Positions 6,269-12,449 of a stretch of DNA of 31,162 nt are shown here, piece by piece. The stretch is from a virus (Duplodnaviria; Heunggongvirae; Uroviricota; Caudoviricetes): IMG/VR virus record IMGVR_UViG_2582580984_000003, one strand, 5' to 3'. Positions within the stretch are counted from its first letter, which is position 1, and the number at the start of each line of letters is the position of its first letter. Both the position numbers and the translations under genes were made by a program. A model generated the notes under the pieces. It was given only the letters and a program-made list of their open reading frames with translations, had not been told where the DNA came from and ran no database searches.

Positions 6269-6598
6269 CTATGCCACGACCTGTTCAAAATCTGCCGTTA
6301 TGGTTACCCACAGCGCCCCCACGCTTGCCGACCATTTACGACAAACCACCCTGATCGGCTTCCAGTCATAAGGTGGCGTCCACTGAAATGCGCGGACGCC
6401 ACCGTGCCGTTCCAGAAAGGCTTTCAAAGATGGGTGTTCACATTTACGAACACGTATCGTCACGCTGTAAGTCGACAACTGGTTATTCAGTCCCGCCGCA
6501 CGACGCTGTTCATAACCATCGCCCAGCTTCACTGTCACCACTTTCGGCTCTGATACCACATTCATATCCGGGCGCACTTTCCAGTGAAACGTCTCCAT
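6269..6598 (-). CDS. M: Minor tail protein M
   Basis: 109-aa ORF; ATG overlaps the H stop (TAATG); lambda gpM-like sequence and size. Confidence 0.9.
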   Translation of the reverse strand: METFHWKVRPDMNVVSEPKVVTVKLGDGYEQRRAAGLNNQLSTYSVTIRVRKCEHPSLKAFLERHGGVRAFQWTPPYDWKPIRVVCRKWSASVGALWVTITADFEQVVA

Positions 6599-9500
6599 TA
6601 CCGATATGCTCCACTTAACCGACCACCATCACGGGCCTGCTGTTGCATAAAGTCCGCTGCCGCTTTTTTCCCAAGGTCATAAACCACCTTCAGGGCAGCC
6701 GGACCTATCTGCCCGTTCGTGCCATCGTTATTGATCTCGATGTTGTACTGCGGGGCAAACATCGCCATACCTGAACCACCAATATCCGCCACAACCCCCA
6801 GCTTACCGTCAGCACCACGACGCAGTGGCAGAATGGCTTCAGGTCCAGCTTCCCCCATCACACCCGCGCCTTTTGCAAAAGCAAAAAACGTCGGACGGTT
6901 AACCACCGTGCCACTGTAACGACTCAAATCAGCAGACTGATAAATCCCCCCATTGGCATTCAGGGAAAGGCTGCTGAGATCAAATCCCAGTACACTGCCA
7001 ATCCCTTTTATCGATTTCATCATGGTTGCCTGCGCCAGGATTTTCGCCATATCTGACAGCACAGAAGAGGTGAAGGATTTGAAATTGAGTTTGCCGGTAG
7101 TGACAAAAGTTGCCAGGCCATTTCCCATGTTGCTGAAGGCTGACGAGAACACCTGTTCTGCTGTTCCTGCCGTATTATCTGCATCCACGGTAAAATCCTG
7201 AAATGCACGCAGGACTCCGTTTTTCCAGTTACCCTGAGCAATTTCAAGCTGTTGCCAGTAACGGCGATTCTCATTCAGTTGTCGGTTCAGGCTCTCCGTC
7301 AGCGCCTGCTCGGCCTTTCTGTAGTCATCCGTGTTATATGTCCCTTTCTGCTCACTATCCCGCCTCAACTGCTCCAGCTGTTGCTGGTATTTCTGGCGAA
7401 GACTCAGTTGTACCTGATATCGCTGCCGCTGCTGATCACCCATACCCACCGTGGCGATATCCTGGTCATGTTGCTGACGCTGAGCGCGCTCTTCTTCAGC
7501 CAGTTGACTGGTCAGCTGAATTGTTTTTTTCTTCAGATCGTTGAGTGCCGTCTGTTTCTGAAGCTCCTGCTGTTTTACATCCAGCAGCGTCAGTGCCTGA
7601 ATCAGTTCATCTTTACGGGCCAGCACACTCTTTTCATCTGCCGTCAGTTTTTTCCCGTCCAGATCGCTGATGCGCTGCTGCAGAGCCAGAAGCTGTTTAT
7701 GCGCTTCTGTCATCCTGTCAGTGGCAATGCCTGCTGACTGTCTTGCAGCAGCAATCTGTCCTTCCACCTGTGCCTGTTGCTGGCTGTACTGCAGCAATAA
7801 CCGGGTGGCCTCATCATTACGGGTTTCGCGTGTTTTTTTCTTACCGGATGCCAGGGCTTTCTCGTAACGTTCATTTTCACGTTGTATCGCCGCATCCCTG
7901 ACAGCCTGATCGGCGTACTGCATGGCATTAATACGCGCAATTTCACGCTGATGTCGTGCAGCTTCCGTTTCATTCATCCGATTCAGTGCAGCATTTTCAG
8001 CATTACGGCGTTTCTGTTGCTCCTGATAATTCCGCTCTGCCTGCTCTTTTGCATCCTGCAAATCCTTCTGGCGTTTTTTCTCCTGAAGATCGTTAAGACG
8101 CTGCTGATCGTATTCAACCTGAGAAGATGATGCCGTCCAGGGGAGTCTTTTCGCCCGCGACACTTTCTCCTGCAAAGTGGCAATCTGCGCATCCAGCGAA
8201 TCTTCACGACCAATATTCATGGCCGCATCCCAGAAACGACTCCATAAATCAGACAGATACTTCAGCGTACTGCCCAGCGCATTGAGGTTATTATCAATAT
8301 CCGCAGTACGTCGACCGGTTTCCTCTGCCAGTGCAGACATGGCTATCCGTGCCGCATCACTGGACCGCCCCTGTTCCCCAAGGACGCGTATCTGCTCAAG
8401 CTGAGTGGCAGTAAGAAAATGCAGCTCATTGTCCAGAGCCTTCGCGGCATTTACAGGATCATCCTTCAGCCGCTTAAACTGACTTATGGTATCGCTGACC
8501 GACTGGCCAACCGATCGCTCCATCTGTGCGGCAGCTCTCGCCACCATACTGATATCGTTTCCACGAAATGCACCACTCCCCACCACCTGAGCCAGCGCAC
8601 CGACTGCAGCATGTTGCGTGATACCATTCCCGGAAATAGCACGACTGAGCGTCCACAGCTGCCCGGCAGTGACTCCGGCATAATGCCCCGTCAGCGACAG
8701 CTGGCGGTTAAATTCTTCCCCCTCCTTCTGACCGTCATACCAGGCTTTACCCAGACCATAGACAGCCGCGGCAATACCACCAATAACCCCGCCAAGCATC
8801 ATGCCTTTCGGTGACATCAGTGTGTCTATCCACCCGGCACGGTTAGCCAGCGTTATTCCGGATCCCCTCAGCGCACCTAAATTTCCGCGGGCCAGTTCAC
8901 CTATCAGAACGCCTATCTCCTGACGGGCCGCTGCACTTTTCAGACCCAGCGAATGCGTGGCTTTTCCTGCCTGCTCCATTTTGCGGATATACACTTCTGC
9001 AGCACTGCTTACCCCCAGCTGGGCAGCCCTGGCACGAAGCAACTCAGAAGAAGAAAGATTCTGGCGGGTTGCCTGCTCTTTAAGCTGACGGATAAACGCC
9101 ACTTTCTGTCGGGTAGCCTCTTCCTCAGCCTGTGTAAGAACACGGGTTTTCGCCGTAACCTCAGAAATCAGCGCCAGATAATCCTGCTGACCAATCCCGC
9201 CACTGTTTCTGGCCTGTCGGATCTGCTGCTGAATACGCTGTAATTCCTGCAGCCCCGCACTGGCCTGTTTCACACTGTCAATCTGACGATAAAACGCGGC
9301 AGCCGCTTTATCCTGAGCCTCCGCCAGAGCCATGGCCTGCGCCTGTTCCTCGCGTATTTTCTGGCTCAGTGCCTCCATACGCTGGCGGGTTTTCTCCACC
9401 TCGCGGGCCATGCGTTCATGAGCCTGTGCGTTCTTCTCCACCGTCTGCGCATGGACGGATGCGGCTGTTGCAGCCGAAGACGCCGCCTGCGTTGTCTGCC

Positions 9501-9663
9501 GGGCGGCCTGAGTCTGACGCTCCATAAAACGCTGCATACGGGCAGAAGACCGTTCTGCATCGCTGGCTGCACCATTCAGAAGGTTTTTGATACGGGGAAT
9601 TTCATTTTTAAACTCTGCCGCATCAATCCCCAAATCAATGACCAGGTTAGCTATCTGGTCCAT
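6598..9663 (-). CDS. H: Tail tape measure protein H
   Basis: ORF-track ORF is 1031 aa from a TTG; trimmed to ATG at 9663..9661, preceded by GGAGGTG (1021 aa). Coiled-coil Q/E/R/A-rich core; C-terminus NNDGTNGQIGPAALKVVYDLGKK..RDGG matches the lambda gpH C-terminal motif. Confidence 0.88.
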   Translation of the reverse strand: MDQIANLVIDLGIDAAEFKNEIPRIKNLLNGAASDAERSSARMQRFMERQTQAARQTTQAASSAATAASVHAQTVEKNAQAHERMAREVEKTRQRMEALSQKIREEQAQAMALAEAQDKAAAAFYRQIDSVKQASAGLQELQRIQQQIRQARNSGGIGQQDYLALISEVTAKTRVLTQAEEEATRQKVAFIRQLKEQATRQNLSSSELLRARAAQLGVSSAAEVYIRKMEQAGKATHSLGLKSAAARQEIGVLIGELARGNLGALRGSGITLANRAGWIDTLMSPKGMMLGGVIGGIAAAVYGLGKAWYDGQKEGEEFNRQLSLTGHYAGVTAGQLWTLSRAISGNGITQHAAVGALAQVVGSGAFRGNDISMVARAAAQMERSVGQSVSDTISQFKRLKDDPVNAAKALDNELHFLTATQLEQIRVLGEQGRSSDAARIAMSALAEETGRRTADIDNNLNALGSTLKYLSDLWSRFWDAAMNIGREDSLDAQIATLQEKVSRAKRLPWTASSSQVEYDQQRLNDLQEKKRQKDLQDAKEQAERNYQEQQKRRNAENAALNRMNETEAARHQREIARINAMQYADQAVRDAAIQRENERYEKALASGKKKTRETRNDEATRLLLQYSQQQAQVEGQIAAARQSAGIATDRMTEAHKQLLALQQRISDLDGKKLTADEKSVLARKDELIQALTLLDVKQQELQKQTALNDLKKKTIQLTSQLAEEERAQRQQHDQDIATVGMGDQQRQRYQVQLSLRQKYQQQLEQLRRDSEQKGTYNTDDYRKAEQALTESLNRQLNENRRYWQQLEIAQGNWKNGVLRAFQDFTVDADNTAGTAEQVFSSAFSNMGNGLATFVTTGKLNFKSFTSSVLSDMAKILAQATMMKSIKGIGSVLGFDLSSLSLNANGGIYQSADLSRYSGTVVNRPTFFAFAKGAGVMGEAGPEAILPLRRGADGKLGVVADIGGSGMAMFAPQYNIEINNDGTNGQIGPAALKVVYDLGKKAAADFMQQQARDGGRLSGAYR

Positions 9664-9964
9664 AACGCACACCTCCGGAAATACCTTCCCCAAGATGCAT
9701 CAGTTCTTCGTCCGTTCGCTCCGGTATCCCGTTCTCTTCCGGTAAAAGGCTGAAATCAGCCACCGCAGCATCACTGCTGCCGGACACCATTCTCACGATC
9801 AATGCCTTCAGCGAGGCAAACTGCGCATCCATCCACACATCACTGAAGCTCTGCATCCGGAAATAATCGCCCCACTCACCAAGCTCAGTGGCCGACATTT
9901 CCGACAGCATCCGCCGCCAGTCTGCCCGCCGGAACTCCCGGGCAAGCCGCATGACAAACTGCAT
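9647..9964 (-). CDS. T: T segment of tail assembly chaperone G-T (expressed by -1 frameshift from G)
   Basis: Open frame in the -1 frame relative to G, overlapping the G 3' end; slippery-like heptamer G GAA AAG (forward 9979..9985) lies just before the G stop; position between G and H as in lambda. Confidence 0.75.
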   Translation of the reverse strand: MQFVMRLAREFRRADWRRMLSEMSATELGEWGDYFRMQSFSDVWMDAQFASLKALIVRMVSGSSDAAVADFSLLPEENGIPERTDEELMHLGEGISGGVRYGPDS

Positions 9965-9972
9965 TTCCCGCG

Positions 9973-10362
9973 TCAGGACTTTTCCGGCGTCAGCACCTCA
10001 TGCTCCAAATCCCCGGCATTATCAATGGCCCCCATACCGCTCAGCGACAGAACCATCTCCGCCCCCGCACCCAGGGCATCATACGACCATGTTGTAATAA
10101 CGGATGCGTAAAGCGTCTCAACATCCTGAGACTGTTCCGCATTCCACAGTGAGCGGGAAACCAGCCAGGCATTGATATCCATCCCCATCCGCAGAAAAGC
10201 AATCTGTCGTTCAGCCTCCGGCAGTTCTCCCTCCCCGGCATCAAACTTTGCCGTTCGCTGCTGAACAAACGTCAGATATTCAATTCTCTGCAGCCCGGAC
10301 AGCTCACTGAGCACCACGGACTGTTTTTCATAATTAAACGTGTCCTGTTTCAGAAACATCAT
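9973..10362 (-). CDS. G: Tail assembly chaperone G
   Basis: ORF-track start (10401) lies inside a terminator-like hairpin; trimmed to ATGATG at 10362/10359 preceded by GGTGGAG. N-terminus MMFLKQDTF resembles lambda gpG MFLKTESF. Confidence 0.8.
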   Translation of the reverse strand: MMFLKQDTFNYEKQSVVLSELSGLQRIEYLTFVQQRTAKFDAGEGELPEAERQIAFLRMGMDINAWLVSRSLWNAEQSQDVETLYASVITTWSYDALGAGAEMVLSLSGMGAIDNAGDLEHEVLTPEKS

Positions 10363-10375
10363 GTTCTCCACCTGT

Positions 10376-10399
10376 AAAAAAGCCCCGAATAACCGGGGC
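10376..10399 (-). terminator. Intrinsic terminator-like hairpin between V and G
   Basis: Minus-strand GCCCCG-GTTATT-CGGGGC followed by TTTTTT, 20 nt after the V stop codon and just before the G RBS. Confidence 0.45.
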
Positions 10400-12173: not shown

Positions 12174-12449
12174 TTACTCAATAAAGATCATTGGCTTACC
12201 GTTAAAGCGTTCATGCCGTGTGACCGTCCATTGTTGTCCGTCATAAACAACGCGATCCCCGCGCCGTGGGCGGTATCCCGAAGAAAACACCACCAGAGAG
12301 ACCGCAGGTCCGGACAGAGCATTCAGCTCTGCCAGTGTTTCTCCCGGGATCACAGTCATATCGACATCATTAACCGAGGCTGTCTTTCCCATCTTTCTGA
12401 CCGTGATCGCATCCATACGCGCTGCCAGCCGGGAAAAGGGATCAGACAT
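12174..12449 (-). CDS. Head-tail joining protein (FII-like by position)
   Basis: 91-aa ORF with ATG start between the head genes and Z; the upstream gene's stop overlaps its start region. Assignment is by synteny only. Confidence 0.5.
   Translation of the reverse strand: MSDPFSRLAARMDAITVRKMGKTASVNDVDMTVIPGETLAELNALSGPAVSLVVFSSGYRPRRGDRVVYDGQQWTVTRHERFNGKPMIFIE

What the first reader, a model, noticed from the sequence alone, without database searches (positions are those of the whole stretch)
9647..10362. G / G-T programmed -1 frameshift with a non-canonical slippery heptamer
The T frame is -1 relative to G and overlaps its 3' end, as in the conserved tail assembly chaperone frameshift. The only slippery-like sequence just before the G stop is G GAA AAG (forward 9979..9985, minus strand) rather than the lambda-type G GGA AAG. 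The A-site Lys codon can re-pair (AAG to AAA), but the P-site Glu tRNA would re-pair imperfectly (GAA to GGA). An alternative shift site further upstream in the overlap cannot be excluded.
Basis: partly seen in the sequence, partly recalled or inferred. Interest (0 to 1): 0.45.

Follow-up and report, generated by a model that had tools for sequence, protein, structure and literature searches.

The report
Lambda-type G/GT tail chaperone frameshift site
This is the ordinary lambda-style tail-assembly-chaperone frameshift of an E. coli lambdoid prophage, and its "odd" slip sequence G GAA AAG is the commonest version in this gene family and is already annotated as the slip site in phage N15.

Summary
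On the minus strand, G (10359/10362..9973) is followed by a T-frame ORF (..9647) in the -1 frame. They lie between the major tail gene V and the tape-measure gene H of an mEp460/cdtI-like E. coli prophage.

The -1 frame is closed by a TGA at 10000..9998. G and the T frame therefore overlap by only 25 nt, and G GAA AAG (9985..9979) is the only shift-prone sequence in that overlap.

I compared 25 lineages of the lambda-G family with less than 80% GT identity:
- Six of the seven heptamer positions are invariant, inside a very variable region.
- The third position is A in 21 lineages and G (lambda-type G GGA AAG) in 4.
- AAG is never AAA, GAA is never GAG, and the preceding codon always ends in G.

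T-domain homology begins right after the junction Lys, and the ATG at 9964 is not conserved.

The GenBank record of phage N15 marks the same GGAAAAG as "slippery sequence for -1 translational frameshift". The site is real and almost certainly functional, but it is already known in kind. No stimulatory RNA structure was found. An SD-like GAGGTG lies 8 nt upstream but is not conserved across the family. No experimental measurement for this heptamer in a phage context was found.

The parts
10382..10399 (-). Terminator-like hairpin (GCCCCGGTTATTCGGGGC followed by TTTTTT) between V and G
   Evidence: The same position is annotated 'terminator' in Ayreon and mEp460 and 'putative rho-indep. transcription terminator' in N15.
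9973..10362 (-). Gene G, the tail assembly chaperone. There are two adjacent ATGs (10362 and 10359). Homologues and PGAP start at MFLK (10359), and the stop TGA is at 9975..9973.
   Evidence: Pfam PF06894 at 1.4e-40. TIGR01674 equivalog at 185 bits. Alignment with the G proteins of Gifsy-2, phi80 and lambda.
9994..9999 (-). SD-like GAGGTG, 8 nt upstream of the heptamer. It is a possible but unproven stimulator.
   Evidence: Sequence. GAGG is kept in 84/84 close relatives, but an SD-like 4-mer is present in only about 10 of 21 G GAA AAG lineages.
9998..10000 (-). TGA stop in the -1 (T) frame. It is the upstream limit of the G/T-frame overlap.
9979..9985 (-). Shift heptamer G GAA AAG. The zero-frame codons are GAA 9984..9982 and AAG 9981..9979. 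After the -1 slip they are read as GGA AAA.
   Evidence: Invariant in 84/84 close relatives. Conserved in 21 of 25 diverged lineages, with G GGA AAG in the other 4. The identical heptamer is annotated as the slippery sequence in N15.
9647..9979 (-). T-frame segment read after the shift. It runs from GTC (9979..9977) to the TAA stop (9649..9647) and encodes 110 aa. The predicted GT fusion has 237 aa (127 aa of G followed by VLTREMQFVMRLAREF...).
   Evidence: Pfam PF06223. TIGR01715 at 133 bits on residues 132-237 of the fusion. PHROG 32165 matches residues 1-236 of the fusion in one stretch. The junction alignment shows homology beginning right after the Lys.
6598..9663 (-). Gene H, the tape measure protein and binding partner of G/GT. 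Its start overlaps the end of the T frame.
   Evidence: Pfam TMP_2, Tape_meas_lam_C and TMP_4. Annotated as tape measure in all related records.

Best explanation
Most ribosomes translating G stop at the TGA at 9975..9973 and make free G (128 aa). A small fraction slip back one nucleotide on G GAA AAG (9985..9979). After decoding Glu (GAA) and Lys (AAG), the single enterobacterial tRNA-Lys re-pairs from AAG to the cognate AAA. The tRNA-Glu re-pairs from GAA to GGA, giving two Watson-Crick pairs and a G-U pair at the middle position. Translation then continues with GTC CTG ACG..., producing a 237-aa G-T fusion with the junction ...TPEK|VLTREMQF.... By analogy with lambda, the G part binds the tape measure H and the T part recruits the tail tube protein V, and the low GT:G ratio is set by the shift frequency. 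What is shown here: the frame geometry, the uniqueness of the site, domain identity, nucleotide-level conservation of the heptamer, and the absence of a conserved start codon for T. What is inferred: that the slip actually occurs, its frequency, and that the P-site tRNA-Glu contributes (tandem slippage) rather than tRNA-Lys slipping alone.
For: The 25-nt overlap contains a single shifty site. The gene order is V-G-T-H and the domain matches are equivalog level. The fusion matches a PHROG of full-length GT proteins end to end. In 25 representatives with less than 80% GT identity, heptamer positions 1, 2 and 4-7 are 25/25 invariant. Position 3 is A in 21 and G in 4. Neighbouring third-codon positions carry about 0.1 bit of information. 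AAG is used 25/25 although only 27% of Lys codons in this window's structural genes are AAG. GAA is used 21/21 against a 54% background. The codon before the heptamer varies (CCG, GCG, CTG, ACG) but always ends in G, as P-site re-pairing to GGA/GGG requires. Only GAA and GGA occur as the P-site codon, and this Glu/Gly swap argues for a nucleotide constraint rather than an amino-acid constraint. The base 3' of the heptamer is always a pyrimidine. T-domain homology starts immediately after the junction Lys, and the Met of ATG 9964 aligns with L, R, H or V in other lineages. The N15 record marks the same GGAAAAG as 'slippery sequence for -1 translational frameshift'. The Atkins 2016 review lists G_GA-type P-site codons and NNA_AAG motifs as known intermediates between hexamer and heptamer shifting (PMC5009743). 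Lambda G-T shifting gives a 30:1 ratio that is needed for tail assembly.
Against: I found no direct measurement for this heptamer in any phage G-T context. In a reconstituted E. coli system, AUG GAA AAG was used as the 'less slippery' control and gave mainly zero-frame product (PMC6924986). A_AAG-type single-tRNA shifting is about 10-fold weaker than the best heptamers and is barely above background without a stimulator (PMC4066793). No significant downstream structure was found in this window (z = -1.09, z = +0.84), and there was no Rfam match. The SD-like element upstream is not conserved family-wide. No public record of this phage group annotates a joined CDS.
Confidence: 0.85

Rival explanations
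1. The shift occurs at the same site but by single-tRNA slippage. Only tRNA-Lys moves from AAG to AAA (an A_AAG tetramer or NNA_AAG hexamer mechanism). The tRNA-Glu does not re-pair productively, so the 'heptamer' is really a tetramer in context.
For: A_AAG is the most shift-prone tetramer in E. coli (PMC4066793). NNA_AAG hexamers are used naturally, for example in IS1222 and B. subtilis cdd (PMC5009743). Peng et al. treat GAA-to-GGA as a non-cognate second-position mismatch.
Against: If only A_AAG mattered, any NNA codon and any preceding base would do. Yet across 25 lineages the P-site codon is only GAA or GGA, and the preceding base is always G even though that codon's identity changes. This pattern is what P-site re-pairing to GGA/GGG predicts. 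Some of the conservation could still come from other context effects.
Confidence: 0.3
2. T is made as a free 105-aa protein. It would start either by independent initiation or by termination-reinitiation at ATG 9964, 8 nt after the G stop, as public annotations (PGAP 'phage tail assembly protein T') imply. No frameshift would be needed.
For: An ATG is present at 9964 in this clade, close to the G stop. All related records annotate T as a separate CDS.
Against: That ATG is not conserved. Gifsy-2, phi80, N15, lambda, Proteus, Erwinia and others have L, R, H or V at this position and no start codon between the heptamer and the conserved F..LAREF motif. T homology extends upstream of the ATG to the junction. 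There is no well-spaced SD, because the GGGAA abuts the ATG. This model cannot explain the nucleotide-level conservation of the heptamer. In lambda, T is made only as GT (established knowledge: Levin, Hendrix and Casjens 1993; review).
Confidence: 0.07
3. Transcriptional slippage on the A run adds or removes a base in some mRNAs and so produces the fusion.
For: The site contains an A4 run.
Against: Known bacterial transcriptional slippage needs much longer homopolymer runs, roughly 7-9 or more (established knowledge; the review treats it as a separate class). The conserved features are G at position 1 and AAG rather than AAA at the end. AAA would lengthen the A run, yet it is never seen in 25/25 lineages. 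That is the signature of tRNA re-pairing, not of RNA polymerase slippage.
Confidence: 0.01

Closest known systems
Phage lambda G / G-T programmed -1 frameshift (G GGA AAG)
   Same: Same gene family for both halves (TIGR01674 and TIGR01715 equivalogs). Same gene order V-G-T-H. The shift site sits at the homologous position just before the G stop, and the A-site codon AAG is the same. A short overlap and the lack of an obvious stimulatory structure are also shared.
   Different: The P-site codon is GAA (Glu) instead of GGA (Gly). After the slip, the non-Watson-Crick G-U pair therefore falls at the middle anticodon position rather than the wobble position. The heptamer lies 10 nt from the G stop rather than 22 nt, and the overlap is 25 nt rather than 64 nt. 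G is only 31% identical to lambda G.
Phage N15 genes 14/15 (also phi80 genes 13/14 and Gifsy-2 STM1039/STM1041.1n)
   Same: The heptamer G GAA AAG is identical and at the homologous site. The N15 record explicitly annotates it as 'slippery sequence for -1 translational frameshift'. The Gifsy-2 record describes its T homologue as 'part of G+G' frameshift hybrid protein'.
   Different: The proteins are diverged: the G protein is 57-59% identical to Gifsy-2 G (57% by tblastn, 59% in the alignment) and 35% identical to phi80 G. The distance to the G stop is 22 nt in N15 and phi80, against 10 nt here. The N15/phi80/lambda clade has a GC-rich hairpin about 40 nt downstream that this window lacks.
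NNA_AAG hexamer and A_AAG tetramer -1 shift sites of bacteria (IS1222 G_CGA_AAG, B. subtilis cdd A_CGA_AAG)
   Same: The shift is driven by tRNA-Lys moving from AAG to AAA, with an imperfectly re-pairing P-site tRNA (PMC5009743).
   Different: In those cases the P-site codon is CGA, read by an inosine tRNA. Here it is GAA, and position 1 of the heptamer does match (G), so re-pairing is closer to cognate.
G_GA(U)_UUN shift sites of dianthoviruses, umbraviruses, mesoniviruses and insect-specific flaviviruses
   Same: They have the same non-canonical 'G_GA' first half of the heptamer (PMC5009743).
   Different: They are translated by eukaryotic ribosomes, have a different A-site codon, and depend on strong downstream RNA structures.
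E. coli dnaX A AAA AAG frameshift
   Same: The AAG A-site codon is decoded by the single tRNA-Lys. An SD-like element lies upstream at a comparable spacing: GAGGTG 8 nt upstream here, against AGGGAG 10 nt upstream in dnaX (one search gives the dnaX construct).
   Different: dnaX has a fully cognate tandem site and a strong downstream stem-loop, and it shifts at about 50%. Here there is no significant downstream structure. By analogy with lambda, the expected frequency is a few percent or less.

Membership tests
Lambda-type G/GT tail assembly chaperone with programmed -1 frameshift | Two ORFs lie between the major tail (tube) gene and the tape measure gene. | tested here: met
   V is Phage_TTP_12 at 1.2e-66. 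H is TMP_2 / Tape_meas_lam_C. G and T lie between them.
Lambda-type G/GT tail assembly chaperone with programmed -1 frameshift | The upstream ORF is homologous to lambda G. | tested here: met
   PF06894 at 1.4e-40. TIGR01674 equivalog at 185 bits against a cutoff of 74.
Lambda-type G/GT tail assembly chaperone with programmed -1 frameshift | The downstream ORF is homologous to lambda T, lies in the -1 frame, and overlaps the 3' end of G. | tested here: met
   PF06223 at 3.4e-15. TIGR01715 at 133 bits against a cutoff of 77. The -1 frame and the 25-nt overlap are shown.
Lambda-type G/GT tail assembly chaperone with programmed -1 frameshift | A conserved slippery sequence lies in the overlap. 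| tested here: met
   G GAA AAG is present in 84/84 close relatives. It is present in 21 of 25 diverged lineages, with G GGA AAG in the other 4.
Lambda-type G/GT tail assembly chaperone with programmed -1 frameshift | The fusion protein GT is actually produced at a low ratio to G and is required for tail assembly. | not testable with these tools
   This needs a reporter assay, a western blot or mass spectrometry, plus genetics.
Canonical X XXY YYZ tandem-slippage heptamer | Positions 1-3 are identical and positions 4-6 are identical, so both tRNAs keep their first two base pairs after the slip. | tested here: not met
   Positions 1-3 are G, G, A. After the slip, tRNA-Glu would face GGA with a G-U pair at the middle position.
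A_AAG tetramer / NNA_AAG hexamer -1 shift motifs of bacteria | An in-frame AAG codon is preceded by A, in a host with a single tRNA-Lys (UUU). | tested here: met
   GAA AAG is in the zero frame. The host is E. coli (100% identical copies in many E. coli chromosomes). That E. coli has a single tRNA-Lys comes from the literature.
dnaX/IS-type stimulated -1 frameshift signal | An SD-like sequence lies 6-17 nt upstream of the motif. | tested here: inconclusive
   GAGGTG lies 8 nt upstream in this window, and GAGG is kept in 84/84 close relatives. However, only 11 of 25 family representatives have any SD-like 4-mer there, and the region is rich in Glu codons.
dnaX/IS-type stimulated -1 frameshift signal | A stable hairpin or pseudoknot lies 5-9 nt downstream. 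| tested here: not met
   The downstream 99 nt give z = -1.09 and the downstream 67 nt give z = +0.84. There is no Rfam match.

The most novel reading that the evidence does not exclude
G GAA AAG is a genuine tandem-slippage heptamer. In it, E. coli tRNA-Glu tolerates a middle-position G-U pair in the P site. It, and not lambda's textbook G GGA AAG, is the ancestral and majority shift signal of the lambda-G chaperone family. The canonical form appears to have arisen at least three times by a single A-to-G transition (rough NJ tree). Because the same sequence was used in vitro as a 'non-slippery' control, its pervasive natural use would mean one of two things. Either the P-site mismatch costs much less in vivo than assumed, or these phages run on a markedly lower GT:G ratio than lambda, perhaps tuned by the 3' pyrimidine and, in some clades, by an upstream SD-like element.
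Probability: 0.35. Interest if true: 0.4.

Novelty: already known. Interest (0 to 1): 0.2.

Why it matters
There are three practical consequences:
- **Annotation.** Every related public record I inspected lists G and T as separate proteins, without the joined GT product: Ayreon, Tritos, PhiR40_1 and one E. coli chromosome annotated by PGAP. A near-identical copy of this locus occurs in 1,848 of 5,426 complete E. coli genomes.
- **Detection.** Searches restricted to strict X XXY YYZ motifs will miss this site. The genomic search of Sharma et al. 2014 was restricted in this way.
- **Mechanism.** The family offers a natural paired comparison, G GAA AAG against G GGA AAG at one homologous site. 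It could be used to measure how much a second-position G-U pair in the P site costs in vivo.

None of this changes the understanding of the system.

Tried and rejected
- **Alternative shift sites upstream.** Rejected. The -1 frame is closed by TGA at 10000..9998, and the 25-nt overlap holds no other Z_ZZN or X_XXY_YYZ motif.
- **Downstream stimulatory structure.** Folding the 99 nt and 67 nt after the site gave nothing better than shuffles (z = -1.09, z = +0.84). The Rfam scan was empty.
- **Family-wide upstream SD-like stimulator.** It is present here but in only 11 of 25 lineages, and the region is rich in Glu codons. I did not accept it as a conserved element.
- **Enrichment of the bare motif.** Not significant (8 matches against 4.9 expected).
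- **Literature.** Full-text searches for 'GGAAAAG' with 'frameshift' and for 'G GAA AAG' found no phage paper on this heptamer. Xu, Hendrix and Duda 2004 (Mol Cell) is not in the held library, so I could not check whether it tabulates this variant. A search for N15/phi80 frameshift papers gave nothing relevant.
- **Solved structures.** No PDB sequence match to the GT fusion.
- **First viral-contig scan.** It returned only relatives 95-100% identical. These were useful for showing invariance but not for showing diversity.
- **GC-rich hairpin downstream in the lambda/phi80/N15 clade.** It is built from the LAR and WRA codons, shows only G-C/G-U changes, breaks when the protein changes, and is absent from this window. 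I did not pursue it as a stimulator.

Full report
**1. What is in the sequence**

The G zero frame ends ...GAG GTG CTG ACG CCG GAA AAG TCC TGA, with the stop at 9975..9973. The T ORF runs from ATG 9964 to the stop at 9649..9647 and is in the -1 frame relative to G. The heptamer G GAA AAG occupies 9985..9979.

The neighbouring genes identify the locus:
- G matches Pfam Phage_TAC_2 (lambda gpG) at 1.4e-40.
- T matches Phage_tail_T at 3.4e-15.
- The upstream gene is a lambda-type tail tube protein with a Big_2 domain.
- The downstream gene is a lambda-type tape measure protein.

The segment is 100% identical to prophages in many E. coli chromosomes. It is found in 1,848 of 5,426 complete E. coli genomes. 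It is 98% identical to phages mEp460, cdtI, Ayreon and Tritos.

**2. Only one site is possible**

The -1 frame carries a TGA at 10000..9998. A ribosome can therefore pass from G into the T frame only within 25 nt (-1 frame: GGT GCT GAC GCC GGA AAA GTC C). That stretch has no X XXY YYZ motif and only one A-site-slippery sequence, G GAA AAG.

The word GGAAAAG is not itself over-represented in the window (8 matches against 4.9 expected). The signal lies in its position and its conservation.

**3. Comparative evidence**

- **Named phages.** Gifsy-2 (57% identical G by tblastn, 59% in the alignment), phi80 (35%) and N15 carry the same G GAA AAG at the homologous place. Lambda has G GGA AAG there.
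- **One genome per species.** A scan with an alignment of four G proteins returned 69 loci. In every usable locus, the heptamer just before the G stop is either G GAA AAG or G GGA AAG.
  - G GAA AAG occurs in Escherichia, Citrobacter, Proteus, Xenorhabdus, Symbiopectobacterium, Erwinia, Enterobacter, Atlantibacter, Phytobacter, Leclercia, Buttiauxella, Kosakonia, Yokenella, Kluyvera, Superficieibacter and Entomohabitans.
  - G GGA AAG occurs in lambda and its relatives, a Serratia/Symbiopectobacterium group, and Edwardsiella.
- **Diverged representatives.** In 25 representatives with less than 80% GT identity, heptamer positions 1, 2, 4, 5, 6 and 7 are invariant. Position 3 is A in 21 and G in 4. 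Flanking third-codon positions are almost random, at about 0.1 bit.
- **Codon choice.** The codon before the heptamer changes identity (CCG, GCG, CTG, ACG) but always ends in G. AAG is never AAA, although AAG makes up only 27% of Lys codons in this window's structural genes. GAA is never GAG, against a 54% background. The base after the heptamer is always a pyrimidine.
- **Close relatives.** All 84 sampled relatives keep the heptamer.
- **Tree.** A rough NJ tree of the GT proteins places the G GGA AAG lineages in three separate clades among G GAA AAG lineages. Lambda's canonical heptamer therefore looks like the minority, derived state.

**4. T is read as a continuation of G**

In an alignment of conceptual fusions, the C-terminus of G is highly variable up to the dipeptide E-K (or G-K). 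Conservation then starts at once: V/A-L-x-x-E-x-x-F-x-x-x-L-A-R-E-F-R-R-P-D-W-R.

The Met encoded by ATG 9964 aligns with L, R, H or V in other lineages. A separate start for T is therefore not a family feature.

The 237-aa conceptual fusion scores as follows:
- TIGR01674, 185 bits, on residues 1-128.
- TIGR01715, 133 bits, on residues 132-237.
- A PHROG of full-length GT proteins (phrog_32165), matched in one stretch over residues 1-236.

**5. Mechanism**

The A-site part is standard for E. coli. The single tRNA-Lys reads AAG weakly and re-pairs cognately on AAA. A_AAG is the most shift-prone tetramer, and X_XXA_AAG heptamers are the best heptamers (PMC4066793; PMC5009743).

The P-site part is near-cognate. 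The tRNA-Glu (anticodon UUC) on GGA keeps G:C and A:U pairs and has a G-U pair in the middle position. In lambda, tRNA-Gly on GGG has its G-U pair at the wobble position.

The review by Atkins et al. lists such intermediates between hexamer and heptamer sites, including 'G_GA' first halves in several eukaryotic virus groups. It also notes that shifting on NNA_AAG depends on the identity of the 5' codon.

Two family-wide patterns suggest that the P-site tRNA does contribute: the invariance of the first G, and the restriction of the P-site codon to GAA or GGA. This is an inference, not a demonstration.

Some evidence points to low efficiency:
- Peng et al. used AUG GAA AAG as their 'less slippery' control and obtained mainly zero-frame product in vitro (PMC6924986).
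- Without stimulators, even the best heptamers give about 0.3% in vivo.

Lambda needs only about one GT per 30 G, so a weak site is compatible with the function.

**6. Stimulators**

The downstream sequence does not fold better than shuffled sequences (z = -1.09, z = +0.84). No Rfam family matches.

An SD-like GAGGTG lies 8 nt upstream (9999..9994), a spacing within the range used for SD-like stimulators. GAGG is kept in all 84 close relatives. However, only 11 of 25 family representatives have any SD-like 4-mer there, and the region is rich in Glu codons. I record it as a possibility only.

**7. What is already known**

The GenBank/RefSeq record of N15 carries a misc_feature 'slippery sequence for -1 translational frameshift' whose bases are GGAAAAG. 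The Gifsy-2 record calls its T homologue 'part of G+G' frameshift hybrid protein'. The variant is therefore already recognised.

The related records I inspected for this phage group annotate G and T separately, without a join. I found no paper that measures shifting on this heptamer in a phage context. I could not read Xu, Hendrix and Duda 2004.

**8. Rivals**

- **Independent initiation or reinitiation of T at ATG 9964.** This cannot be excluded as a side route in this clade. It does not explain the conserved heptamer or the homology upstream of the ATG.
- **Transcriptional slippage.** The A4 run is too short. The consistent avoidance of AAA, which would lengthen the A run, also argues against it.
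- **Single-tRNA slippage.** This is a variant of the same explanation. It differs only in whether tRNA-Glu re-pairs, and a synonymous change of G9985 would decide between them.

**9. Verdict**

The feature is an ordinary member of the lambda G/GT frameshift family, using the family's commonest heptamer. Interest is low.

One modest point may deserve an experiment. A sequence used as a non-slippery control in vitro is the predominant natural shift site of this gene family.

Noticed in passing
window 10382..10399 (minus strand), followed by a T run: There is a terminator-like hairpin, GCCCCGGTTATTCGGGGC followed by TTTTTT, in the V-G intergenic space. The same spot is annotated as a terminator in mEp460, Ayreon and N15. 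It probably lowers transcription of G/T/H relative to the abundant tube protein V.
   Followed up: partly
window 9647..9662 (minus strand), end of the T frame overlapping the start of H: The T frame of this window ends 4 codons early (...GPDS*) compared with 82 of the 84 close relatives sampled (...GPDSQPGH*). A CAA-to-TAA change causes this, and it is a synonymous GCC-to-GCT change in the overlapping H frame. The same allele is present in E. coli chromosomes that are 100% identical to the window.
   Followed up: partly
window 12384..12390 (minus strand), inside the 91-aa ORF 12174..12449: This ORF contains an in-frame canonical G GGA AAG heptamer (codons 21-22). The -1 frame closes after 4 codons, so a slip would only truncate the protein. 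This is probably a chance occurrence.
   Followed up: partly
L004 (lambda) 1146-1189, L007 (phi80) 1244-1287, L157 (N15) 2064-2107 and relatives: In the lambda/phi80/N15 clade, a GC-rich hairpin (CTGGCGCG...CGCGCCAG) lies about 40-75 nt after the heptamer. Its folding z-scores range from -2.4 to -4.3. It is formed by the LAR and WRA codons of the conserved T motif. It shows only G-C/G-U changes, breaks where the protein changes, and is absent from this window.
   Followed up: partly
L134-L146 (genome-contig hits): Exact lambda G-T sequence occurs on short, roughly 1x-coverage contigs in assemblies labelled Kitasatospora, Paenibacillus, Shewanella, Pseudomonas, Oceanobacillus, Leeuwenhoekiella and others. 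These are almost certainly lambda spike-in or cloning contamination, not prophages.
   Followed up: no
window 9647..10362; public records L001, L002, L003, L006: None of the related records inspected (three phage records and one PGAP-annotated E. coli chromosome) annotates the GT fusion as a joined CDS. T is listed as a free protein, with start codons that differ between records (positions 1957, 2023 or 1187 in the respective loci).
   Followed up: yes
window 9994..9999 (minus strand): An SD-like GAGGTG lies 8 nt upstream of the heptamer, and its spacing resembles that of the dnaX stimulator. It overlaps the -1-frame TGA. Its GAGG core is conserved in close relatives, but the element is not conserved across the family.
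   Followed up: partly
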